A DNA stretch of 64,000 nt from IMG/VR virus record IMGVR_UViG_3300022555_000010, positions 32,001-96,000 of that record. One strand, written 5' to 3'. Positions 8,017 to 54,552 of the stretch are shown one piece after another (position 1 is the stretch's first letter; each line of letters starts with the position of its first letter). The notes beneath the pieces were generated by a model, which saw only the letters and a list, made by a program, of their open reading frames with translations, was not told the DNA's origin and searched no databases. The stretch comes from a virus. The position numbers and the translations under genes are program-made.

Positions 8017-8124
8017 CAAGATGAAAATGATATGAAACCAAGATGAAAATGATATGAAACCAAGATGAAAATGATAGCAACCAAGATGAAAATAATATGA
8101 AACCAAGATGAAAATGATAGCAAC
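8017..8124 (+). repeat. five tandem 21-22 bp repeats CAAGATGAAAAT(G/A)ATA(TGA/GC)AAC, iteron-like
   Basis: units start at 8017, 8039, 8061, 8082 and 8104; no spacers. Confidence 0.95.
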
Positions 8125-8230
8125 CCGACAGAGAATTTTCCCATTCCTCTCCACAGAATTTTCACTCCAATTCTTGTTACGGGACAGAAACACTTCCAAC
8201 AGTTCCATATGGTCGGCGATGTAGGGGCCT

Positions 8231-42110: not shown

Positions 42111-43229
42111 ATGACAACGAAAGAGATGGGATTTGGGGTTAATGTGTGGTGGACGCTTCCGGAAACATCGATTGATGGCATCCGAGCACAAACGCTTCTA
42201 CAGAAGCACGGCTTTGAAGCATCGGATATGAAACTCCCTTCCAAGATTGAGGAAGTTTCTCGGGCAGTTCAATCTTTCCACGACCGTCGGAGCAAAAACA
42301 ACCGCCGCATCGTCGAAAAGGTTCTGGACACCCCGGATGAAGTGATTTACGGGATTCTGGATCGAACCCAGTCAGGCGAGAAAGTCGCCTTCTCTCAAAA
42401 GACCACGGTCCGTATGGACAAGAATACGGGTTCAGTCACGGTCGAAGGAACCTTACAGGACGAAGTCTACAAAGTCCTTCCCGAGTTCAAGGGCAAAATC
42501 ACGGACCAGGATGTCCGGGGTTTTCTTCGTGATGTAATCAAGATGTGTTTCGGGGTGGCCAAGCGTCCTTCCGGTGGCATCTATTTCGTTCCCGCGAAGT
42601 TCGCCGGGATCGTCGAACAGGCTCAGGCTCTCCTGTCAGAAATCAACGGGGGTGCGAGAATCTATGTGGAACGCATTATGGACGGAACCCACGAACGTCA
42701 GAACGTGTGGGAATCTGTCGAGGCCGATGTGGAAAGTCGTCTGGCAGAAGCAGTTGCGGCTATCGGACAGATCGAACGTCGGGCATCTGCGGTCATGGGA
42801 CAACGGGACAAGATCACTGAGGCGGCTAATCTGATGAAGGTGTATCAGGCACTTCTCGGGGAAGAAGCCAAGTATGAGTCTCTGGCTGAGAAGATTGAGG
42901 AAGCGGTCAAGGTGGTTACGGACAAGATGAACGAGATCCAACCTGGGGTGCCGAACACTACCACGGCCAAAAAGGCCGGGAAGGCACCTGTGGCGGGCAA
43001 GGCGAGGGCCGGGGGAACGGTCGTGGCGGCTGTGTTGCAGGTTCTCGTAAACACCGGGAAGGCCATGACCTCGAAGGAGATTATGGATGAGGCGGTGAAA
43101 CTCGGTCTGTATTCGTCTGATTGTGCGGCTCCGTATGAGGCCTTTGTTTCCAGTTTCACGAAGGCGATGGCCAAGGGTGAGAAGAGGATCAAACGGATAG
43201 GTCGGGGGATTTATCAGATCGCGGCTTAA
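42111..43229 (+). CDS. phage protein (DUF3150/DUF6744-like) with C-terminal HARE-HTH-like domain
   Basis: RPSGGIYFVP; C-terminal AVLQVL..GKAMTSKEI..A...GLY...GRGIYQI. Confidence 0.55.
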   Translation: MTTKEMGFGVNVWWTLPETSIDGIRAQTLLQKHGFEASDMKLPSKIEEVSRAVQSFHDRRSKNNRRIVEKVLDTPDEVIYGILDRTQSGEKVAFSQKTTVRMDKNTGSVTVEGTLQDEVYKVLPEFKGKITDQDVRGFLRDVIKMCFGVAKRPSGGIYFVPAKFAGIVEQAQALLSEINGGARIYVERIMDGTHERQNVWESVEADVESRLAEAVAAIGQIERRASAVMGQRDKITEAANLMKVYQALLGEEAKYESLAEKIEEAVKVVTDKMNEIQPGVPNTTTAKKAGKAPVAGKARAGGTVVAAVLQVLVNTGKAMTSKEIMDEAVKLGLYSSDCAAPYEAFVSSFTKAMAKGEKRIKRIGRGIYQIAA

Positions 43230-43259
43230 GAAGATGGGTTGAAAATAACCGGCATCAGA

Positions 43260-43289
43260 TTCCGTATTCTGGTGTCGGTTTCGCAATGT
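43260..43289 (+). promoter_or_regulatory. phage promoter-like motif
   Basis: TTCCGTAT-N15-GCAATGT upstream of the ligase. Confidence 0.85.
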
Positions 43290-43319
43290 ATAGGTGTCGG
43301 AATCGTAACAGGAGAAACA

Positions 43320-45281
43320 ATGAACGAAAAAGAGATAGCAATTAAAATACTGGAACTGGCAGAACAGGTTCAATATCATTCGGATCTTTATTACAACAAG
43401 GCCAAGCCGGAACTCACTGACGCGGAATATGACGCGATGGTCGAAGAACTGAAGGCGGCGGTGGCTGAACTTGAAAAGAAAGATCCTTCCGCTCCTGAAA
43501 TCTCTCAGGGCAAAATCGTTTTGAGTAATGTCGGGTCTGTCCCGTCATACGGTGAAAAGGTCACTCATGCCTCAATCATGGGTTCCTTGGACAAGGACAC
43601 GAAGGTTTCCGGGATTGTGGCGTGGTATAACAAGTATGCTCCCAAGGGAGGATGCAAGTTGGTCGTGACTCCGAAGATTGACGGGTGTGCCAGTCGCATC
43701 AACTATGAAGACGGCAAACTTGTGAAGGCGGCAACTCGTGGGGATGGTTCGGTCGGAATGAATGTGACTGACAATATCCTGGCGACAAAGAGTATCCCGA
43801 AGTTCATCGGGGCAGGGAAGACCATCGAAGTTCGTCCAGAAGTATATATGCCTCGTTCAGTTTTCAATCGTCTCAAGGCGGCAGGGGCCAAGGGGGAAAA
43901 TCCCCGGAACCTTGGAACAGGCAGTTTGATGGCTCAAGATCCGAAGGAAACCGCAAGCCGGGACCTTTCGATTCTTGCCTATGATGTTCAGGGCGGACCT
44001 CAATTCAAGACGGAGACGGCGAAGCGGACTTGGATGGAAGCCAATCTTCCGGGTATCCCGTTGGTGGATATGCAGGTGATCGATGTCAGCGAGTTCGAGG
44101 CCGTGGCTCTGGAATGGGAAGCCAAGCGTCCAACACTGGATTACGAGATTGATGGTCTGGTGATTGCTCTGGACTCGATTGAAGCTCAGGAAGAAGCCGG
44201 TTGGAATGGTAAACGTCCCAATGGCAAGATCGCCTTTAAGTTCCCTCCAGAACAGAAGACGGCGAAGATCCTGGGGATTGACTGGCAGGTCGGTCGGACA
44301 GGTCGGTTGACACCGATGGCTCGTATTGAGCCGACACGGTTGGCCGGCAGCACTATTCGGAATATCACTCTTCACAATGCGGCGAATGTCGTGGCAATGG
44401 ATGTCGGAGTGGGTGACGAGGTCTTGATTGAGAAGGCCGGGGATATCATCCCGCAGGTCGTCCGGGTCGTGGATCGTCCGGCAAATCGAGATGCCAATGT
44501 GTTCGTGACGGAATGTCCTTCCTGTGGTGGTCCGGTATTCGCGGACGATCAGAAGGTCAATCTGTGGTGTGAGAGCACCAATTGTCCCGCACAGTTGGAA
44601 CGCCGAATCCTTCACTGGATCAAGACTTTGGACATTTTGGGAGTCGGGCCTGGAATCATTCGTGAGCTCTGTCAGCAGGGTTTCGTGAAGGATGTTCCGG
44701 ATCTGTATTTCCTGACGGAAGAACAGTTGGTGTCGGCTACGGGTGGTAAGTCGAGTGCTCAGAAGGTGCAGACGGTAATTCTGGAGAAGTCCGAGATTCC
44801 TCTGGCAGTCTTCCTGGATGCTCTGGGAATTGACGGCCTGGGGACGACTTCATCGAAGGAAGTTGCCAAGGCATTCAAGACTTTGGGCGGGGTACTTCAC
44901 GCGACGATGGACGAGTTAGATGCTCTGCCGGATATCGGGGCTACGACTGCCAATAACATTGTGGAAGGTCTGAAGGCTTTGACTCCGATGATTGATCGGT
45001 TGGTTCAGACTCTTGATGTTCAGGAAATCGTGGAGAAGACGGGGCCTTTGACCGGGATGAGTTTCGTTCTGACGGGTGCGATGAGCAAACCCCGGAAAGA
45101 AATCGAGCACAACATTGAGATGGCCGGTGGCGAGAACAAGGGTAGTGTCGGCAAGGGTGTGACATACTTGGTTCAGGCTGATGCCAATAGCACCTCCTCG
45201 AAGACGGAGAAGGCGAAGAAGGTCGGGACACTGGTAATCAGTGAGGACAAACTGTGGGAGATGATTGGAGGACAGGTATGA
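43320..45281 (+). CDS. ligA: NAD-dependent DNA ligase
   Basis: YY..DAEYD, SLDK, KIDG, ATRGDG, IDGLV, AFKF, WQVGRTG, TLHN, KAGDIIP, C4 Zn finger, HhH, BRCT; SD AGGAG before ATG 43320. Confidence 0.97.
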   Translation: MNEKEIAIKILELAEQVQYHSDLYYNKAKPELTDAEYDAMVEELKAAVAELEKKDPSAPEISQGKIVLSNVGSVPSYGEKVTHASIMGSLDKDTKVSGIVAWYNKYAPKGGCKLVVTPKIDGCASRINYEDGKLVKAATRGDGSVGMNVTDNILATKSIPKFIGAGKTIEVRPEVYMPRSVFNRLKAAGAKGENPRNLGTGSLMAQDPKETASRDLSILAYDVQGGPQFKTETAKRTWMEANLPGIPLVDMQVIDVSEFEAVALEWEAKRPTLDYEIDGLVIALDSIEAQEEAGWNGKRPNGKIAFKFPPEQKTAKILGIDWQVGRTGRLTPMARIEPTRLAGSTIRNITLHNAANVVAMDVGVGDEVLIEKAGDIIPQVVRVVDRPANRDANVFVTECPSCGGPVFADDQKVNLWCESTNCPAQLERRILHWIKTLDILGVGPGIIRELCQQGFVKDVPDLYFLTEEQLVSATGGKSSAQKVQTVILEKSEIPLAVFLDALGIDGLGTTSSKEVAKAFKTLGGVLHATMDELDALPDIGATTANNIVEGLKALTPMIDRLVQTLDVQEIVEKTGPLTGMSFVLTGAMSKPRKEIEHNIEMAGGENKGSVGKGVTYLVQADANSTSSKTEKAKKVGTLVISEDKLWEMIGGQV

Positions 45282-47206: not shown

Positions 47207-47236
47207 TTCCGTATTTAGACGACAATTCTGCAATGT
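47207..47236 (+). promoter_or_regulatory. phage promoter-like motif, leaderless (ATG 47243)
   Basis: TTCCGTAT-N15-GCAATGT-N6-ATG. Confidence 0.85.
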
Positions 47237-47242
47237 ATCGAT

Positions 47243-49192
47243 ATGAACATACCAAAAACAGCAATTTCAATGGACTTAAGGAAGTTTCGCCAAAGTGGCT
47301 TTAAAGAGGAATTTATCCTCGACGGAGGGATCTATGTCCCTCGTGAGATGCAGATAGAGGCCATCCACGAACACCAGGATTCGCGATACGCGATGATCGT
47401 GGGTCCTACAGGGAACGGCAAGTCTAAGGCTATCTGGACCATTTCCATGATTCAATTGAATCGGAAATTGATTCGCAAGGCGGTTGTTCTCGTACCTCAG
47501 ACGATTATTGGCAAGTCATACGACGATGGGATTATGAGGGTCGATGGTATCGGGGATGTGGAATGGATTGTGGCCCCGAAGGATCGGCTCACAAGCCCTA
47601 CGACCTCTGACATTGTCAAGACGGCTCATGTTAAGGAGTTCTTGAGGTCGAAACGAAAGACTCTCGTCTGCACTTATCATTCATTTGTGGCGGCATACAA
47701 GTCTTTGTCGAAGAAGGATAAGAAGGCCTTGTTTGCCGGTGTGATGGTGTGGGTGGATGAGTGTCATCATCTGGCTTTCGCAAAGAACGGCCAACGGGCA
47801 GAGTTCAATTGCCTGGGACATATCATTGATGAGTTGATGGAAAATGTTCCGACTTGTCGTATTGGAATGGCAACGGCGACATATTGCCGGGGAGATTTAG
47901 GGGCTATCCTTAAGCCTGAGACATACTCGAAATTCAAGGTCTACGAGTATTCGTATGACCGGTACTTCAAGGCGATGAAGTATCTGGAGACATTCGAGTT
48001 CAAGTTTATTCCCTATCAGAGAAAGAAGGGGGAATTTCCTCCCGCAAAGATTATTGCTGAAATGTTCGACAAGTGGAATGCCAAGACAATTGCTTATGTT
48101 CCTTCCGTGAACAGTTCTTGTTCTCATGGTAAGGATCACGAAGTTCAGAAAATTATGGAGGCTCTCGGGACTGATGAGGCCGGAAAGACGGAATATCCGG
48201 AAGACGAAAACGGAATAATTCACATTACTCGGCCTGATGGTACAAAACTGAAGGTGATGAATCTTGTGGCCGAAGAAGGTCGGAATGTTAAGAAGGCCTA
48301 TATCGAGGAGATTCGGAATGACAAGGACCCGGAGATCCGTGAGAGAAATCGGCAGAAGCTGGATATGATCATTGCTCTCGGAATGTTCAAAGAGGGTGCT
48401 GACTGGGAGTTCGCTGAACGGTCAGTCATTATCGGGTATCGCGGAAGTCTTGTTGAGATGGTTCAGATTACGGGACGACTGTTTCGGGATATTCCCGGAA
48501 AGAAGCATGTTGAGGTCAACAATCTGATTGAGGCGACCCTGGCGACACAAACAGACGAGTTCGAGGGGGACCTCAACAAGGTAATGTTGTCGATATTTGG
48601 AGTGATGCTGATGGAGGATGTGTTCAGTCCGATTCGGATGGAGTCAGAACGGTCGGACAAGCCCGGCAGTAAAGACGGATATTTTGATTATCTGGCGGCG
48701 GCAATCCCGGCTGACAAGCGACAAGATTTCTTCGGTTCGGTGTTCTCTGATGTCATCAACAAACTCAAGAATTGTAATGATGGGGCTGTTGTAGAACGGT
48801 TTCGTGATGAAGAGTTTGAAGGGATTGTTAAGAAACATCTCAAAGATGGAGGATTTGACGACTCTCATCTGGACTTGATCTCGGAAAAGGTCTGGCGGAT
48901 GTTCACCAGAAGGGGTCTGAGGACTCAGGGGCTGGATATTAATGATGTTGGGATTAAAATCATTCGCCGGTCAAACCCATTGGCAGGGATTGTTGAATAC
49001 CTTTCTGACAAAAGGAACAGTGAAAGTCTGGAAATGATTAAGAAGGCATTCCAGGATAGTCGGATTACGCCGGAGGAATGGGTTCACATTGCGGAACTCC
49101 TGGAGAAAAAAAATGGTGGGTCACTCCCTTGTAATTCAGAAATGATAAGGATGAGGGAGCATAATAGTTTTATGGCGGAATTAAATAAATAG
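47243..49192 (+). CDS. superfamily 2 (DExH) helicase/ATPase ending in a half repeat
   Basis: GPTGNGKS, VDECHH, ATAT, KEGADW, QITGRLFR. Confidence 0.9.
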   Translation: MNIPKTAISMDLRKFRQSGFKEEFILDGGIYVPREMQIEAIHEHQDSRYAMIVGPTGNGKSKAIWTISMIQLNRKLIRKAVVLVPQTIIGKSYDDGIMRVDGIGDVEWIVAPKDRLTSPTTSDIVKTAHVKEFLRSKRKTLVCTYHSFVAAYKSLSKKDKKALFAGVMVWVDECHHLAFAKNGQRAEFNCLGHIIDELMENVPTCRIGMATATYCRGDLGAILKPETYSKFKVYEYSYDRYFKAMKYLETFEFKFIPYQRKKGEFPPAKIIAEMFDKWNAKTIAYVPSVNSSCSHGKDHEVQKIMEALGTDEAGKTEYPEDENGIIHITRPDGTKLKVMNLVAEEGRNVKKAYIEEIRNDKDPEIRERNRQKLDMIIALGMFKEGADWEFAERSVIIGYRGSLVEMVQITGRLFRDIPGKKHVEVNNLIEATLATQTDEFEGDLNKVMLSIFGVMLMEDVFSPIRMESERSDKPGSKDGYFDYLAAAIPADKRQDFFGSVFSDVINKLKNCNDGAVVERFRDEEFEGIVKKHLKDGGFDDSHLDLISEKVWRMFTRRGLRTQGLDINDVGIKIIRRSNPLAGIVEYLSDKRNSESLEMIKKAFQDSRITPEEWVHIAELLEKKNGGSLPCNSEMIRMREHNSFMAELNK

Positions 49193-49195
49193 ACC

Positions 49196-50338
49196 ATGAA
49201 TGATCAGGACATCATCGATATAGCCATCAGAGGTCGGGCAACTGGGAGTGGATTGTGGCACGCAATGCGGAGTAATCCAAAATTGTTTGCACATCTCAAA
49301 CAAGAATGTAAGCGAGGCAAAACACCGGAAGAATGGGTCGTTATTGCCGAAAAACTGGCGGAAGAACACAATGGAATATTGCCTCGTCCTATCTGGTTAG
49401 AGGCAAATGGTTACAAAGGATTGTATGCTTGTATTCGTCGGTGTCCAAGTTTTTTCAAGCATATCAAACAGGATAGAAAACAGAGGCCTATCGAGGAGTG
49501 GGTGTCGATTGCCGAGGGAATAGCCAAAGATCATGATGGAGTCATTCCTAGGCCAAGATGGTTGATTGAAAATGGGTACAGTGGACTAGCCAGGATGATG
49601 AAAGAGAATCCCGATGAGTTTAAACACATAAGTCAAAACAAGATGATTAAAATAAAGCCTGAGTCATTGGTTCCCGTTGTCGAAAAACTGGCAAAAGACA
49701 ATGGTGGGATTTTACAAAAACAATGTTGGCTTCATAGTAATGGGTATTCAGGAGTGGTTGCCGCGATAAAAAGACATCCTGAGTTGTTTACCCACATTCA
49801 AATGGAAAGAGTTATATACCGCAATTTGGATGAGTGGGTGGTGTTTGCCGAGAAATTGGCTGAAGAAAACGGTGGAGTGATTCGGGCCGGTGAATGGTTG
49901 AATAAGAATGGGCATTACGGACTTAAACGGATGATGAAGAAGTTCCCGGAGAGATTTGCCCACATTAAACAAGAACGGGAAAATTTGTCGGTCGATGATT
50001 GGGTTGTGGTTGCTGACAGATTAGCAGTAGAACACGAAGGTCTGTTGCCTCATTATGATTGGTTGGCAAACAATGGTTACACTGGTTTGTGTCGGGCGAT
50101 CAGGTTTAATCCTGACAAGTTTTTACATCTTCTTCGTGATGTAAGACGAAGGACACCGAAAGCCTGGGTCATCATTGCTGACAAATTGGTAGAGGAGAAT
50201 AATGGTATTTTCCCAACGCAAGAGTGGTTGAAAAAGAATGGATACGGTGGCCTATCTTGTTGTGTTTGTAAGCACCCCGAATTTTTCAAACACATCAAGC
50301 GTAATAAGCCTTGCGAGAGAGTGGCGAAGGCGGCATGA
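49196..50338 (+). CDS. tandem ~55-aa helical repeat protein 1 (6 repeats)
   Basis: EEWxxIAEKLAxxNGGxLPxxxWLxxNGYxGLxxxxxxxPxxFKHIKQ. Confidence 0.85.
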   Translation: MNDQDIIDIAIRGRATGSGLWHAMRSNPKLFAHLKQECKRGKTPEEWVVIAEKLAEEHNGILPRPIWLEANGYKGLYACIRRCPSFFKHIKQDRKQRPIEEWVSIAEGIAKDHDGVIPRPRWLIENGYSGLARMMKENPDEFKHISQNKMIKIKPESLVPVVEKLAKDNGGILQKQCWLHSNGYSGVVAAIKRHPELFTHIQMERVIYRNLDEWVVFAEKLAEENGGVIRAGEWLNKNGHYGLKRMMKKFPERFAHIKQERENLSVDDWVVVADRLAVEHEGLLPHYDWLANNGYTGLCRAIRFNPDKFLHLLRDVRRRTPKAWVIIADKLVEENNGIFPTQEWLKKNGYGGLSCCVCKHPEFFKHIKRNKPCERVAKAA

Positions 50339-50432
50339 TTTAGCCGCGTTGGAGACTTGTGTCTACAGACATCCAGGTTGTTCAAACACATTCCCCAGGA
50401 TCGGAGACGGTGGACCCGGAATCGACTTGAAA
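50339..50432 (+). pseudogene. degenerate remnant of a further repeat
   Basis: ALETCVYRHP-(frameshift)-LFKHIPQD. Confidence 0.5.
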
Positions 50433-50446
50433 AAGTTGCATAATCT

Positions 50447-50476
50447 TTCCGTATTTATGACAAGTTTTCGCAATGT
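50447..50476 (+). promoter_or_regulatory. phage promoter-like motif, leaderless (ATG 50483)
   Basis: TTCCGTAT-N15-GCAATGT-N6-ATG. Confidence 0.85.
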
Positions 50477-50482
50477 ATTGGT

Positions 50483-51622
50483 ATGAATGAGAAAGATGTC
50501 ATAGATACAGCCATTAGAGGAAAAGCAACTGGACCTGGATTGATAAGATTCATGTTTAATAATCCAGAACTTTTCAAGCACATATCGCGTGACCATAAAC
50601 ATAATTCCGCAGAAGAGTGGGTTCCCATTGCTGAGAAGTTGGCAAAAGAAAATGGTGGAATACTACAGAGTAGGGGCTGGTTGCAGAAAAACGGATACAG
50701 TGGTTTGTCCAGGGTATTGATAAATTGTCCCAAACTTTTCAAACATATCAAGCAGGAAAAAATGAAAAGGTCACGAATGGAATGGATACCCATCGCCGAG
50801 AAACTGACAAAAGAGAATGGTGGAATACTGCCTTGTAAGCATTGGTTGGTAAAGAACGGTTATTGGGGACTATCAGACTGTATTCGGAAGTTTCCTAAAC
50901 TTTTCAAACATATTAAACAGGAGAAGCGGGGAGGCAAGTCACCGAAAGAGTGGATTCACATTGCCGAGAAATTGGCAAAAGAAAATGGTGGAATACTACC
51001 TTATGGGCGTTGGTTGGGAAAGAATGGATACAATGGATTGTTGTGTGCTATTCGTACTTATCCGGAACTTTTCAAACATATTAAACAGGAGAAGCGGGGA
51101 GGCAAGTCACCGAAAGAGTGGATTCACATTGCCGAGAAATTGGCAAAAGAAAATGGTGGAATACTACAGAATAGTGGGTGGTTGCAGAAAAACGGATACA
51201 GTGGTTTGTCTGCGGTATTGATAAGTTGTTCGGAACTTTTCAAACATATTAAACAGGAGAAGCGGGGAGGAAAGCCGCCTGAAGAGTGGATTCCAATTGC
51301 TGAGAAGTTGGCAAAAGAAAATGGTGGAGTATTACAAAATCATTTTTGGTTGTGTCAGAATCAGTACAGTGGACTTTCGGCTTGTATTAAAAATAATCCG
51401 GAAATGTTCAAGCATCTCAAGGTTGAAAAATGCGTTAAAAGAATAGAAGAATGGCTTCTGATTGCGAAGAGATTAACAAAAGAGAATGGTGGAGTCCTGC
51501 CGACTCATTTGTGGATTAGAGAGAATGGATACTGTGGGTTGTCGTCTTGCATATTAAAGAATCCGGAAATGTTTAAGCATCTCGGGTTACGATTAAAGCC
51601 GCAAAGAAGGTCCAAGGCATGA
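50483..51622 (+). CDS. tandem repeat protein 2 (6 repeats)
   Basis: same repeat; same N-terminal cap. Confidence 0.85.
   Translation: MNEKDVIDTAIRGKATGPGLIRFMFNNPELFKHISRDHKHNSAEEWVPIAEKLAKENGGILQSRGWLQKNGYSGLSRVLINCPKLFKHIKQEKMKRSRMEWIPIAEKLTKENGGILPCKHWLVKNGYWGLSDCIRKFPKLFKHIKQEKRGGKSPKEWIHIAEKLAKENGGILPYGRWLGKNGYNGLLCAIRTYPELFKHIKQEKRGGKSPKEWIHIAEKLAKENGGILQNSGWLQKNGYSGLSAVLISCSELFKHIKQEKRGGKPPEEWIPIAEKLAKENGGVLQNHFWLCQNQYSGLSACIKNNPEMFKHLKVEKCVKRIEEWLLIAKRLTKENGGVLPTHLWIRENGYCGLSSCILKNPEMFKHLGLRLKPQRRSKA
50898..51167 (+). repeat. exact 102-bp direct repeat, period 168 bp
   Basis: 50898-50999 = 51066-51167. Confidence 0.85.
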
Positions 51623-52602
51623 AAGAGAAGGATGTCATAGAGATAGCGGTTCGTGGTCAGGCGACGGGATTGGGACTTATCGGTGCAATGCGTCGGCATC
51701 CAGATCTTTTTATTCATATTGAAAAAGACAGCAAAGACGGAAAGACGCCCCAAGAGTGGGTTTTAATTGCTGAAAAGATGTCTGAAGATAATGGTGGAAT
51801 ATTACAGTCAAATGGTTGGCTTCAAAACAATGGGTATGCGGGATTAGCAAATGCCATTAGAGAACATCCCGAACTTTTCAAGAGCGTTAAGCGAGAATTT
51901 AAAGGTGGCAAGACGAGAGGAGAATGGGTGAGGATTGCTGGGGAAATAGCGAAAGGGAATAATGGCAAGTTGCCGACTAATGCTTGGCTTATTGAAAATG
52001 GATATGGAAAGATGGTATCCGTGAGGTATAAATGGCCAGAACTTTTCAATCACATCGGGCAGGAAAGGAAAGTGAAGACATTAAAAGAATGGGTAGCCAC
52101 AGCAGAGAGGTTGGCAAAAAAGAACGATGGAATAATACCTTGTGACGGGTGGTTGAGAAAGAATGGATATGTTGGGCTACATTCTTGTATGTATAAACAT
52201 CCAGATTTTTTTAAACATCTAAAACAAGATTTTAATGGTGGTAAAAAACCAGACGAGTGGGTAAAAGAGGCGGAAAAATTGGCATCGTTAAATGAAGGGA
52301 TTTTACCGAGTGGAACATGGCTTCGTAATAATGGGTTTACAGGATTGCGTAATACGATTTATAAGTGGCCAGAACTTTTCCAGAATATTAAACAGGACCA
52401 TCAAAGGAAGTCGGCGGAAGAATGGGTTGTTTTGGCAGAGGGACTGGCAAGAGATAATGGAGGAATGTTGCCCAACAGTGGCTGGCTTCAGAGGAATGGA
52501 TATTTTGCATTATATCGTGTTTTCAGGATGAATCCGAATTTGTTCGGTCATATTAAATGTTGGAAGAGGAGTAAAGGTGAGAGAAATGAGCAGGTTAAGT
52601 AG
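51619..52602 (+). CDS. tandem repeat protein 3 (5 repeats)
   Basis: same repeat; same N-terminal cap. Confidence 0.85.
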   Translation: MKEKDVIEIAVRGQATGLGLIGAMRRHPDLFIHIEKDSKDGKTPQEWVLIAEKMSEDNGGILQSNGWLQNNGYAGLANAIREHPELFKSVKREFKGGKTRGEWVRIAGEIAKGNNGKLPTNAWLIENGYGKMVSVRYKWPELFNHIGQERKVKTLKEWVATAERLAKKNDGIIPCDGWLRKNGYVGLHSCMYKHPDFFKHLKQDFNGGKKPDEWVKEAEKLASLNEGILPSGTWLRNNGFTGLRNTIYKWPELFQNIKQDHQRKSAEEWVVLAEGLARDNGGMLPNSGWLQRNGYFALYRVFRMNPNLFGHIKCWKRSKGERNEQVK

Positions 52603-53296
52603 TTCATCAATAGGGTTCAGGAACAAGGACTGGGGGTCAGAAAAGAAGAAGGCGGCACGGTCGCAATCCATTTTCGGGGTCTATCGTCAGGTCATGGAAC
52701 GAGAATCTCTCCCGGATGACAAACAGTATTGGACATTGGCCGGGAAACACACAAGTCCTGGGTGTGAACTACCACACGCCATCAGTGACGGTCTTATTCA
52801 TTCTCATGATCAGTTTCACGGCGTAGACTATGAGGCAGATGTTGTTAGGCACAATCGAAAGAGTTACCCGGAGGCTCATTGGCACAAGGACGAGTTTACT
52901 TGTGCCTTGGAGAAAGCCAAGTCGTTCAATCCTGGTCTGATTAACTTTGATATGGTCTGTATGGTAGACAATGCTTGTCTGGGCATAGCCCAAGCATTAC
53001 ACATCTTGGTAGAAAGAGAAGTTTCCGGGGTAATGATGGCGGCGAACTTCTTGTTGAACAATCCGAGGGAGGTTTCCGCGATGTGTCATTCCCCATTGGA
53101 TGTTTGGGAATGGTTCTATCGGTCAGCAAGTCAGGGAAATACGCTCAGGAGGGCGATGAACCGGGGATGGGAAGTTCATACAAAGGCATATCTGTATGAC
53201 GGAGCCGACAAGGTTTCAAGGTCGTATATGCAGACAGTGTATTTCTTCCGCAAGGAAGAGAGTGGCGAGAGTATAATAAGGAAACAAGGAGAATAA
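52586..53296 (+). CDS. hypothetical protein, possible SAM-methyltransferase-like fold
   Basis: YWTLAG...FHGVD...LINFD spacing resembles motifs I, II and IV. Confidence 0.4.
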   Translation: MSRLSSSSIGFRNKDWGSEKKKAARSQSIFGVYRQVMERESLPDDKQYWTLAGKHTSPGCELPHAISDGLIHSHDQFHGVDYEADVVRHNRKSYPEAHWHKDEFTCALEKAKSFNPGLINFDMVCMVDNACLGIAQALHILVEREVSGVMMAANFLLNNPREVSAMCHSPLDVWEWFYRSASQGNTLRRAMNRGWEVHTKAYLYDGADKVSRSYMQTVYFFRKEESGESIIRKQGE

Positions 53297-53299
53297 AGC

Positions 53300-53926
53300 A
53301 TGAAGAAGTCAAAAGGTACGTTGGCGGCAGAGAAGGCATGGAAGACAATGAAGGAACAGGAGGCTACTATGACTCCCAAACAGTTGAAGGAATTACACCT
53401 GAAACGAAGTAATGCTTCAAAAAGGGCGTGGAAGACAATGAGGGCGGACAAGGTTCATAATTATCTTGGCAAGCCAGCCGCAGGATTTGTAAAAATTGCC
53501 GAGAAGTTGGCAAAAGACAATGGTGGGGTATTACCTCGTATGGATTTGATGGCGAAGTTTGAAACATTCTCAGTGTTCCGAGGATTCGGCGGGGGATGTG
53601 TCGCTCACGGAATGAGCCTAGTTGCTAGATTTTTGGCCACTGATCCCAGGAACGCTGCTGAGACGGCAGCCAAGAAGATGAAAATCAAGTTGGACCCAAA
53701 GCAACAGACTCTTTCTTCGTTCAGGACGGACACACTCAAGGAGCCAGTCTCGTTGTCATATTTCTTCGAGGAGAATGACGGTGAAGAGATCATTGTGGTT
53801 CTTGAAGGCTCATTTTCAGAAAATGAGGCTGACGATATCGTTGAAAAGGACTTTGCCAGATACACCGCGAAACGAGAAGCGGCACTCAAGGCCTGGAAGA
53901 CGATTCGCAAAAACAAGGCTGCATGA
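53300..53926 (+). CDS. protein with three A-x-[KR]-A-W-K-T repeats and one first-half repeat
   Basis: AEKAWKTM, SKRAWKTM, ALKAWKTI; FVKIAEKLAKDNGGVLP. Confidence 0.7.
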   Translation: MKKSKGTLAAEKAWKTMKEQEATMTPKQLKELHLKRSNASKRAWKTMRADKVHNYLGKPAAGFVKIAEKLAKDNGGVLPRMDLMAKFETFSVFRGFGGGCVAHGMSLVARFLATDPRNAAETAAKKMKIKLDPKQQTLSSFRTDTLKEPVSLSYFFEENDGEEIIVVLEGSFSENEADDIVEKDFARYTAKREAALKAWKTIRKNKAA

Positions 53927-54552
53927 ACACAGCACAGCAGGAACTTGATATCCGGAAGAAGGATCTCGCCCGTAAGAGGTCAGAGAATGCCCTCCTCAAC
54001 AGGCAGATCGATACTTCCGAAAAGAGAATCCTTGAGTTAGTTGCCAGTCTGGATCTAGCCAAGGATGCTCTCGTCTTCCTCACCGACCTGGCAGACGGTC
54101 GTCGGGGAGCAATGAAGGGTAAGATCGAAACGGTCGTCACAGAGGCTCTCAGACTCATCTACGGGAATTCCTACCGTATCGAGTTGTCATACTCCGTGAA
54201 GAACAACCGGTCTAACCTGGAAATAGAGATGGTCCGGGATACGGCAACCGGGGAAGTTCGACGGGATATGAACGGTTTCGGGGGTGGTGTCGCAGATACA
54301 ATCAGTGTCCCGCTTCGTTTAATGGTCCTGGTTGGCTCCAGGAAGACTGACAAGGTATGTATCCTTGATGAGTGCTGGAAACACATTGATGCAGGCAGGA
54401 TCGAACTCGTGGGCAAGTTCTTGAGGGCATTGTCGGAGCAACTGGGGATGCAGGTGATTTTCGCAACACATCATCTTCCGTTACAGCAATTTGCGGATCA
54501 GGTTTATCATACGAGTGAGAAAGATGGTAAGTCGGCAGTCAAAGTTGCGTAA
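53923..54552 (+). CDS. C-terminal half of a Rad50/SbcC-type ABC ATPase
   Basis: coiled coil, signature-like FGGG, Walker B ILDE, H-loop FATH; no Walker A. Confidence 0.8.
   Translation: MNTAQQELDIRKKDLARKRSENALLNRQIDTSEKRILELVASLDLAKDALVFLTDLADGRRGAMKGKIETVVTEALRLIYGNSYRIELSYSVKNNRSNLEIEMVRDTATGEVRRDMNGFGGGVADTISVPLRLMVLVGSRKTDKVCILDECWKHIDAGRIELVGKFLRALSEQLGMQVIFATHHLPLQQFADQVYHTSEKDGKSAVKVA

What the first reader, a model, noticed from the sequence alone, without database searches (positions are those of the whole stretch)
47243..53926. Split-repeat helicase with three interchangeable repeat-array partners (candidate modular DNA-targeting machine)
Seen: the SF2 helicase ends with the first half of a ~56-aa repeat (TPEEWVHIAELLEKKNGGSLP). 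Each of three downstream paralogs starts with a conserved cap plus the second half (M..[QK]D[IV]I..A[IV]RG.ATG.GL.......P.LF.H), then has 6, 6 and 5 full repeats. Repeat scaffolds are constant while the positions after GGIL[PQ] and around GY-x-GL-xx vary. ORF 53300 also carries only a first half. A possible methyltransferase-fold gene lies in the same run. Established analogy: helicase-associated (HA) repeats fused to SF2 helicases. Inference: half-repeat complementation docks alternative specificity subunits onto one motor, and the variable residues read nucleic-acid sequence.
Basis: partly seen in the sequence, partly recalled or inferred. Interest (0 to 1): 0.85.

Follow-up and report, generated by a model that had tools for sequence, protein, structure and literature searches.

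The report
Phage helicase with plug-in repeat subunits
A large freshwater phage encodes a motor protein (helicase) that ends in the first piece of a small repeat unit, followed by three repeat proteins that each begin with the missing piece; related phages keep this complementary break, so it is probably a plug-and-socket joint for alternative, probably DNA-binding, subunits, though binding has not been shown.

Summary
The helicase (47243-49192) ends in positions 4-26 of a 55-aa repeat. Proteins A, B and C each start with a conserved 18-aa cap plus repeat positions 35/36-54, then carry 6, 6 and 5 full repeats. ORF 53300 carries positions 3-26 only.

Comparative evidence supports the docking idea:
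- Most relatives of this helicase are 800-1300 aa and fused to repeat arrays. The units are this repeat, HA (PF03457), INT_rpt (PF14882) or a zinc-finger unit.
- In all 8 split loci where the unit type could be read, the helicase ends in the first part of a unit and 1-4 downstream paralogs start with the rest of the same unit type. In one locus the array is of another type.
- A sister phage has a protein with three first-part-only copies.

The split is not an error: contigs from 4 runs in 3 studies are identical across it.

The methyltransferase guess is unsupported. The repeat matched no Pfam model at E 0.1 or better.

This scan found HA-type versions of the same split on other DNA twice (e1-5466588, e1-5327109). 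This window adds a new junction type, the first-part hub protein and a linked gene D.

The parts
47207..47238 (+). Promoter-like bipartite motif TTCCGTATT-N14-GCAATGTAT, 4 nt before the helicase ATG
   Evidence: GCAATGTAT occurs 8 times in the window, all on the + strand, against 0.48 expected. Each copy has TTCCGTATT (one copy TTTCGTATT) upstream and a start codon 4 nt downstream.
47243..49192 (+). SF2 (DEAH/ResIII) helicase, 649 aa, split form
   Evidence: Pfam ResIII E 7.8e-10; phrog_16 DNA helicase. 107 homologs were listed and most are longer and fused to arrays. The weak best PDB sequence matches are Rad25/XPB, E 8.5e-7.
49067..49135 (+). First part of one repeat unit (helix 1 plus GG-x-LP loop) at the helicase C-terminus: the proposed plug
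   Evidence: Residues 609-631 match repeat-HMM positions 4-26, E 1.5e-8. P0002 and P0003 (61-62% identical helicases) have the same piece.
49136..49192 (+). 18-aa helicase tail after the half unit, and a TAG stop in frame with A
   Evidence: The tail is partly conserved in P0002 and P0003.
49196..50338 (+). Repeat protein A: N-cap plus 6 units
   Evidence: HMM hits 35-54 at residues 18-37, then six units.
49196..49309 (+). N-cap of A (cap-specific 18 aa plus second part of a unit): the proposed socket
   Evidence: Cap residues 1-21 are 57-71% identical among A, B and C, against 44-48% overall.
50339..50482 (+). Spacer with an orphan repeat tail (matches HMM 42-55) and a second copy of the promoter-like motif (50447-50478)
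50483..51622 (+). Repeat protein B: N-cap plus 6 units; holds an exact 102-bp duplication (50898 and 51066)
   Evidence: The AlphaFold2 model made with a 64-sequence alignment has pLDDT 89.2, with the cap at 67-70 and the units above 88.
51619..52602 (+). Repeat protein C: N-cap plus 5 units; its start overlaps B's stop (ATGA)
52577..53296 (+). Gene D, unknown function, linked to the cassette
   Evidence: Homologs lie downstream of the partner genes, directly or within a few genes, in L008, L012, L014, L023 and L024, with 19 invariant columns. No family match.
53300..53926 (+). Protein E, carrying one first-part unit (53471-53542) between KAWKTM-type motifs: a proposed second plug carrier
   Evidence: Residues 58-81 match HMM 3-26, E 1.9e-9. 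The piece is 76% identical in DNA to B's first unit over 62 nt. The L008 homolog has three such first-part copies.
53923..54552 (+). Neighbouring SMC/Rad50-like ATPase fragment (membership in the system uncertain)
   Evidence: phrog_15167 ATPase E 6.7e-30; SMC_N E 1.4e-4.

Best explanation
This is a split form of a phage SF2 DNA helicase family whose members normally carry, in one chain, a C-terminal array of small (55-75 aa) helical units.

In this window the array has been detached and triplicated.
- The helicase keeps only the first part of the first unit: helix 1 and the GG-x-LP loop.
- Protein E carries the same first part.
- A, B and C each begin with a cap that supplies the rest of a unit but lacks helix 1.

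I propose that a plug (first part) and a socket (cap) rebuild one unit between two chains. One motor could then carry any of three different arrays, and E could carry them too.

The arrays are most likely nucleic-acid-binding modules that set where or on what the motor acts. The variable residues would lie on one face of the third helix and on the loop before helix 2.

Status of each step:
- Shown: the anatomy, the fused relatives, and the recurrent complementary break.
- Inferred: binding through the rebuilt unit.
- More weakly inferred: DNA binding and differing specificity.
For: 1. Rosetta-stone fusions. P0008 fuses a homologous helicase to six units of this same repeat, starting where the window's half unit sits. 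64 of 104 family members in the tree set are 780 aa or longer, and three IMG/VR loci are fused.

2. Complementary breaks in the loci read.
- Window and L008: helicase HMM 4-26/27; three caps HMM 36-55.
- L015: helicase 3-19; two partners start at about 19 ('MKKAPGILP').
- L014: helicase ends in an incomplete INT_rpt (HMM 1-48; the first half by eye); four partners start at 32/33-58.
- L024: INT 1-26; four partners start at 33/35-58.
- L023: HA first half; the partner starts with the HA second half.
- L012 and L017: complementary by eye or by transitive similarity.

3. The cap follows the helicase end, not the array. In L017 the caps are INT_rpt second parts on arrays of this repeat. P0178 and P0154 start with HA profile positions 31/33-63 of 64 (E 4e-5, 1e-3) before arrays of this repeat.

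4. Among 111 M-starting stand-alone array proteins, 45 start at HMM 15-23 (a few at 40-41) of this repeat and 14 start at INT 33-48.

5. First parts occur on their own. There is one in E and three in the L008 E homolog, two of them lying back to back.

6. Cap residues 1-21 are more conserved among A, B and C (57-71%) than the whole proteins (44-48%). In the model the cap has lower confidence (67-70) than the units (above 88).

7. The split is genuine and stable. Contigs of 4 runs from 3 studies (2017, 2020) are letter-identical across the junction.

8. For DNA binding. The repeat also occurs with GIY-YIG (P0225, E 6.7e-9), T5orf172 and HNH_repeat. Partners in L012 and L023 carry HTH_3, HTH_7 and HTH_11. 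An NMR paper title states that the HA domain binds DNA (reference 64 of PMC12191111; the paper itself was not held).
Against: - No interaction test could be run.
- In this window the two pieces are not an exact complement. HMM positions 27-35 are replaced by an 18-aa helicase tail and an 18-aa cap-specific stretch, so a simple one-to-one rebuild is not obvious.
- In two loci (Tunturi_5, L016) the helicase end could not be assigned to any unit type.
- I chose the loci from proteins with partial ends, so the sample is not unbiased.
- No significant fold match ties the unit to a DNA-binding fold: best Z 3.5 to winged-helix domains, no Foldseek PDB match at E 0.001 or better.
- Profile comparison with HA, INT_rpt and HNH_repeat is not significant, at probability 1.8%, 9.8% and 0.9%.
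- A relative with a 50% identical helicase (L012) has no arrays of this repeat, so the arrays are not essential to the helicase.
Confidence: 0.55

Rival explanations
1. The break is a neutral relic of gene fission. The array genes were cut off inside the first unit and then duplicated. The partial units at both ends are leftovers with no docking role. The proteins act separately or associate through other surfaces.
For: Paralogs inherit the same N-terminus through tandem duplication alone. Repeat DNA recombines readily here: an exact 102-bp duplication and an orphan repeat tail. On the helicase tree, fused and short forms interleave with at least 14 changes, so fission or array loss is frequent.
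Against: A relic should decay, yet caps are better conserved than the arrays. The break is complementary in three unrelated unit types and follows the helicase end rather than the array type. First parts are duplicated on their own in E-like proteins.
Confidence: 0.15
2. The pieces are joined covalently. Either the in-frame TAG is read through to give a helicase-A fusion, or recombination between the helicase's helix-1 DNA and an array's helix-1 DNA makes fused genes in part of the population (cassette switching).
For: The helicase and A are in one frame, separated by TAG plus one codon. TAG is the rarest stop, at 19 of 174 + strand ORFs. The half-unit DNA is homologous to the array units. Fused forms exist in nature.
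Against: None of the 16 tRNAs is a suppressor, and standard-code ORFs cover the genome well. In L008, L012, L015 and L023 the junctions overlap out of frame. A read-through product would leave about 37 extra residues inside the unit. Contigs of 4 runs show no joints in the arrays, although contigs cannot show rare variants. B and C could not be joined in this way.
Confidence: 0.07
3. Docking is real, but the arrays bind proteins rather than nucleic acid, for example host factors or defence proteins. The variable surface would then reflect an arms race, not a DNA code.
For: Helical repeat arrays often bind proteins. No significant match to a DNA-binding fold was found. The paralogs differ strongly at surface positions. 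The arrays are dispensable in a close relative.
Against: The same unit sits where DNA-binding modules sit in GIY-YIG, T5orf172 and HNH_repeat architectures. Alternative partners in L012 and L023 carry classical HTH domains. The gene context is DNA ligase, clamp, SSB and RuvB-like.
Confidence: 0.2

Closest known systems
SF2 helicases with C-terminal helicase-associated (HA, Pfam PF03457) repeats
   Same: It is the same helicase family. Homologs at 26-31% identity carry HA arrays in one chain (P0012, P0017, P0031 and others). Both are a small helical unit repeated at the C-terminus of a ResIII/DEAH motor.
   Different: The unit here is not HA by sequence. The array sits on three separate proteins. 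The joint is a unit broken between two chains.
INT_rpt (PF14882) and HNH_repeat (PF18780) arrays of phage integrases and homing endonucleases
   Same: Unit size is similar (54-58 aa). Unit types can replace one another on this helicase (P0004 and P0006, 59% and 43% identical helicases, carry INT_rpt-like arrays). They co-occur with this repeat in single proteins (P0156, P0133, P0008).
   Different: There is no significant profile similarity, and the conserved motifs differ.
Type I restriction-modification enzymes (one HsdR motor, exchangeable HsdS specificity subunits)
   Same: The logic is the same: an SF2 motor whose target choice lies in a separate, variable, exchangeable subunit built from repeats. 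This comparison rests on my own knowledge.
   Different: There is no sequence relation, and no methylase or nuclease was identified here. The proposed joint is a rebuilt small domain, not a coiled-coil HsdS scaffold.
TALE and PPR modular repeat readers
   Same: A constant scaffold with a few hypervariable positions per unit. Designer PPR proteins were the top, non-significant, Foldseek rows (E 0.011, TM 0.10).
   Different: There is no evidence for a one-unit, one-base code. The unit has four short helices and two bridge residues, unlike TALE or PPR hairpins.
Earlier notes of this scan on other huge phages (e1-5466588, e1-5327109): split HA domain docking helicase partners
   Same: The same family-level idea. 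In loci L012 and L023 I independently saw HA-type breaks.
   Different: This window breaks another unit type, has three partners, and adds an extra first-part carrier (E) and a linked gene D.

Membership tests
SF2 helicase (ResIII / DEAD-DEAH) | Walker A (motif I) and DExH (motif II), and a Pfam match over the curated cut-off | tested here: met
   GPTGNGKS and DECHH are read. ResIII scores 39.3 bits against a cut-off of 22.5, E 7.8e-10.
SF2 helicase (ResIII / DEAD-DEAH) | C-terminal RecA-like lobe (Helicase_C) | tested here: inconclusive
   No Helicase_C hit for the window protein. Relatives hit weakly (P0008 E 0.0022, P0175 E 1e-5). The family profile matches the Rad25/XPB C-lobe at E 8.5e-7.
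HA domain (PF03457) | Sequence match of the repeat unit to the HA profile | tested here: not met
   No HA hit at E 0.1 or better for A, B or C. hhalign against an HA-like alignment gives probability 1.8%. Only the caps of other partners (P0178, P0154) match the HA second half.
INT_rpt (PF14882) | Sequence match of the repeat unit | tested here: not met
   hhalign probability 9.8%, E 0.0033 for one pair. No Pfam hit.
HNH_repeat (PF18780) | Sequence match of the repeat unit | tested here: not met
   hhalign probability 0.9%. It co-occurs in P0156 and P0133 as a separate array.
PF26683 Tyr_recomb_halo_N | Profile match | tested here: inconclusive
   Only hits marked 'faint' are precomputed on partner proteins. 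The model is not in the local Pfam copy. The nearest ESM Atlas cluster carries it in 33% of members, score 0.85, a lead only.
Winged-helix / HTH DNA-binding fold | Structural match of one unit well above background | tested here: inconclusive
   Best Z 3.5 (LexA N-terminal domain, rmsd 3.5 over 52 residues) and Z 3.3 (Z-alpha). This is below the level the tool calls meaningful.
Split-domain docking (plug and socket) | Complementary fragments of one unit type on neighbouring genes, recurring in relatives | tested here: met
   Eight loci and three unit types. HMM coordinates are complementary in the window, L008, L015, L014 and L024. L023 rests on precomputed Pfam HA hits marked weak and faint. 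L012 and L017 are judged by eye.
Split-domain docking (plug and socket) | Physical complex through the rebuilt unit | not testable with these tools
Stop-codon read-through or recoding | Suppressor tRNA or a genome-wide excess of in-frame TAG | tested here: not met
   16 tRNAs, none a suppressor. Removing TAG as a stop raises ORF coverage only from 75% to 79%.
Diversity-generating retroelement | A reverse transcriptase in the genome | tested here: not met
   No RVT_1 match in the 151.8-kb record, which is estimated 72% complete.
Class I SAM methyltransferase (gene D) | Profile or PDB-sequence match | tested here: inconclusive
   No hit for D. The profile of six homologs finds no methyltransferase in the PDB. 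One homolog hits Methyltransf_12 at E 0.15. The fold was not predicted.

The most novel reading that the evidence does not exclude
Huge phages may use a general plug-and-socket kit. Helicases and small hub proteins like E would display first fragments of a mini-domain. Families of array proteins would carry the matching socket. One motor could then be loaded combinatorially with programmable readers of DNA sequence or structure, whose specificity is written in a few residues per unit, as in TALE or PPR proteins.
Probability: 0.15. Interest if true: 0.9.

Novelty: new variant of a known kind. Interest (0 to 1): 0.72.

Why it matters
If the rebuilt-unit joint is real, it is a natural, compact (about 20 + 35 residues) tag pair that lets one motor enzyme exchange targeting subunits. 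The same trick appears to have arisen with at least three unit types. It would also give a handle on the function of HA-type helicase repeats, which have a Pfam model but almost no experimental study. It defines a large repeat family (471 clusters at 50% identity) that matched no model in the Pfam copy used. If the variable residues read nucleic acid, the arrays could become a new programmable binding scaffold.

Tried and rejected
- A single-sequence fold of B failed, pLDDT 38.
- Foldseek against the PDB gave no match at E 0.001 or better. The top rows were designer PPR proteins at TM 0.10.
- VIA-align wide and second look gave Z 3.5 or less.
- BFVD gave one unnamed hit at E 3e-4 (TM 0.26). 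HA-domain and endonuclease proteins appeared only at E 0.02 or worse.
- The PDB sequence search with the array profile found nothing.
- hhalign among the four unit types was not significant.
- blastn against phage records found no match.
- The search for related loci returned one locus with the helicase profile because the patterns were too loose.
- The genetic-code change and suppressor-tRNA idea was rejected.
- The DGR idea was rejected because no reverse transcriptase was found.
- Gene D as a methyltransferase found no support.
- No RNA holder was listed among the sequencing runs, so nothing can be said about expression.
- Contigs showed no variants or joints in the arrays, but contigs drop rare variants.
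- My extended HA-like HMM did not recognise the short caps of L012, Tunturi gp98/99 or the L016 helicase end.
- Literature searches found no description of a split unit in these helicases.
- The HA NMR paper (PMC3637686) is not held.

Full report
**Setting.** The window is bases 32001-96000 of a 151,773-bp IMG/VR virus record, estimated 72% complete. Nearly all genes lie on the + strand and GC skew is strong. The standard code fits. The record has 16 tRNAs and none is a suppressor. Near-identical DNA occurs in freshwater and lake metagenomes of 2017 and 2020. The only phage record with a relative of the repeat proteins is the 309-kb Tunturiibacter phage Tunturi_5. There a helicase (gp100) is likewise followed by two repeat proteins, gp99 and gp98.

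**Observation.**
- The helicase (47243-49192) is an SF2 ResIII/DEAH protein.
- I built an HMM from the 17 repeats of A, B and C.
- Helicase residues 609-631 match HMM positions 4-26. An 18-aa tail and a TAG stop follow.
- A, B and C start with 18 cap-specific residues and then HMM positions 35/36-54. They then carry 6, 6 and 5 full units.
- ORF 53300 (E) holds HMM positions 3-26 at residues 58-81.
- Over 705 units from 159 proteins the scaffold is nearly invariant. Positions 24-26, 29, 34, 37, 38 and 41 are highly variable.
- The DNA repeats are plain.

**Is the split an artefact?** No.
- Contigs of four runs from three studies are letter-identical over the whole stretch, including the TAG junction.
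- A sister phage (L008, helicase 62% identical) has the same half unit and three capped partners. Its junction overlaps out of frame.
- I therefore read the in-frame TAG here as chance.

**What the helicase family looks like.**
- 107 homologs were listed, and most are 850-1120 aa.
- P0008 fuses the helicase to six units of this very repeat. P0004 and P0006 (59% and 43% identical) carry INT_rpt-like arrays. Others carry HA (PF03457) or a zinc-finger unit.
- A search with B found 471 clusters at 50% identity. About 30 of the best 150 are helicase fusions.
- Three IMG/VR loci found by pattern are all fused.
- On a FastTree of the helicase core, fused and short forms interleave with at least 14 changes. 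The window's own well-supported clade of seven holds three different split types and two fused forms.
- So the array is an old, exchangeable appendage of this motor, and detachment has happened repeatedly.

**The key result: complementary breaks.** The roughly 650-aa helicases end in a truncated unit, and stand-alone array proteins begin with the remainder. I read the gene neighbourhoods directly:

| Locus | Helicase end | Downstream partners |
|---|---|---|
| L015 | this repeat, HMM 3-19 | two paralogs starting near HMM 19 |
| L014 | incomplete INT_rpt (HMM 1-48; first half by eye) | four paralogs starting at INT 32/33 |
| L024 | INT 1-26 | four paralogs starting at INT 33/35, plus a 39-aa ORF with only the first half |
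| L023 | HA first half | one partner starting with the HA second half, then zinc ribbon, INT_rpt and HTH_11 |
| L012 (syntenic with the window, helicase 50% identical) | about the first 60% of an HA-like unit | three proteins sharing an N-terminus that looks like the last HA helix, then HTH_3, INT_rpt, or INT_rpt plus HTH_7 |
| L017 | INT-like first part (by similarity to P0077) | four ORFs with INT second-part caps on arrays of the present repeat; one ORF is a cap alone |

- P0178 and P0154 begin with HA profile positions 31/33-63 of 64 and then carry arrays of the present repeat.
- The cap type therefore goes with the helicase end, not with the array. That is what a docking joint predicts and what a mere relic does not.
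- In Tunturi_5 and L016 the helicase end could not be typed.

**First parts on their own.**
- E carries exactly the same piece as the helicase.
- Its L008 homolog carries three such pieces, two of them back to back without any second part.
- This argues that the first part is a module in its own right.

**Structure.**
- With a 64-sequence alignment, B folds at pLDDT 89.2.
- Each unit has a 14-residue helix, a bridge residue in the GG-x-LP loop, two helices of 6 and 9 residues, a short helix at PELF and a second bridge.
- The cap scores only 67-70.
- The variable positions 34, 37, 38 and 41 fall on one face of the 9-residue helix. This is inferred from helix spacing; I could not read the coordinates.
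- No solved structure matches beyond Z 3.5. The best rows are winged-helix domains and are not significant.

**Function.**
- The context is DNA metabolism: NAD-dependent ligase and a DUF6744/HARE-HTH protein upstream in the window and in L012, and ligase also in L008 and Tunturi_5.
- Elsewhere the neighbours are clamp and SSB (L017), a RuvB-like protein (L012) and Thy1 (L024).
- The repeat also occurs in GIY-YIG, T5orf172 and HNH_repeat proteins, where DNA-binding modules usually sit.
- A DNA-binding role is therefore the best guess, but it is not shown.
- Gene D follows the partners, directly or within a few genes, in six loci and has 19 invariant residues. It matches no family, so the methyltransferase idea is unsupported.

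**Earlier notes of this scan.** Two follow-up reports on other huge phages reached the same idea for HA-type breaks. I found these notes only after I had read the HA-type breaks in L012 and L023, so my reading of those loci is independent of them. They are AI notes, not evidence.

**Verdict.**
- The helicase-array partnership is well supported.
- Docking by a rebuilt unit is the best explanation, at about 0.55-0.6, but is untested physically.
- Sequence reading by the variable residues is speculative.

Noticed in passing
window 28677, 36623, 43283, 47230, 50470, 57998, 58627, 59320 (+ strand): A bipartite motif TTCCGTATT-N14-GCAATGTAT lies 4 nt before a start codon. There are 8 copies, all on the + strand, against 0.48 expected. 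It is probably a phage promoter giving very short leaders. One copy precedes the helicase and one precedes B, so helicase+A and B-C-D-E may be two units of one class.
   Followed up: partly
window 50898-50999 and 51066-51167: An exact 102-bp duplication lies inside B (units 3 and 4). This indicates recent unit duplication or gene conversion.
   Followed up: yes
window 50339-50482: An orphan repeat tail (matches HMM 42-55) lies in frame after A's TGA stop. It is a remnant of a lost unit.
   Followed up: yes
L008:12735-13607: The homolog of E has three copies of the first part of the unit (HMM 4-25). Two of them lie back to back with no second part.
   Followed up: partly
L017:5031-5171 and L024:7076-7195: Two mini-ORFs consist of one fragment only: a 46-aa protein that is just an INT_rpt second-part cap, and a 39-aa protein that is just an INT_rpt first part. 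They could be competitors or debris.
   Followed up: no
window 8017-8125: A 22-nt tandem repeat (4.7 copies, 92% match) lies just past 6-8 kb, where GC skew turns from about 0 to +0.5. It is a candidate replication origin with iterons.
   Followed up: no
window 52577-53296; L008:12027-12590; L012:9280-9939; L014:9596-10249; L023:5962-6606; L024:10975-11625: Gene D is a conserved protein of unknown family that follows the helicase partners in six loci. Motifs include KQYW, QFHG, and an invariant P, N and D in the stretch NPGLINFD (P-x-x-x-N-x-D).
   Followed up: partly
P0225, P0174, P0220, P0156, P0133: The same 55-aa repeat occurs with GIY-YIG, T5orf172 and HNH_repeat, in homing-endonuclease-like architectures.
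   Followed up: partly
genome bases 98221-113682 (beyond the window's end): A cluster of 16 tRNA genes, including five Leu and four Ser.
   Followed up: no
window 42111-45281: A DUF6744/HARE-HTH protein and an NAD-dependent DNA ligase lie upstream of the helicase here and in L012. A ligase also lies upstream in L008 and Tunturi_5.
   Followed up: partly
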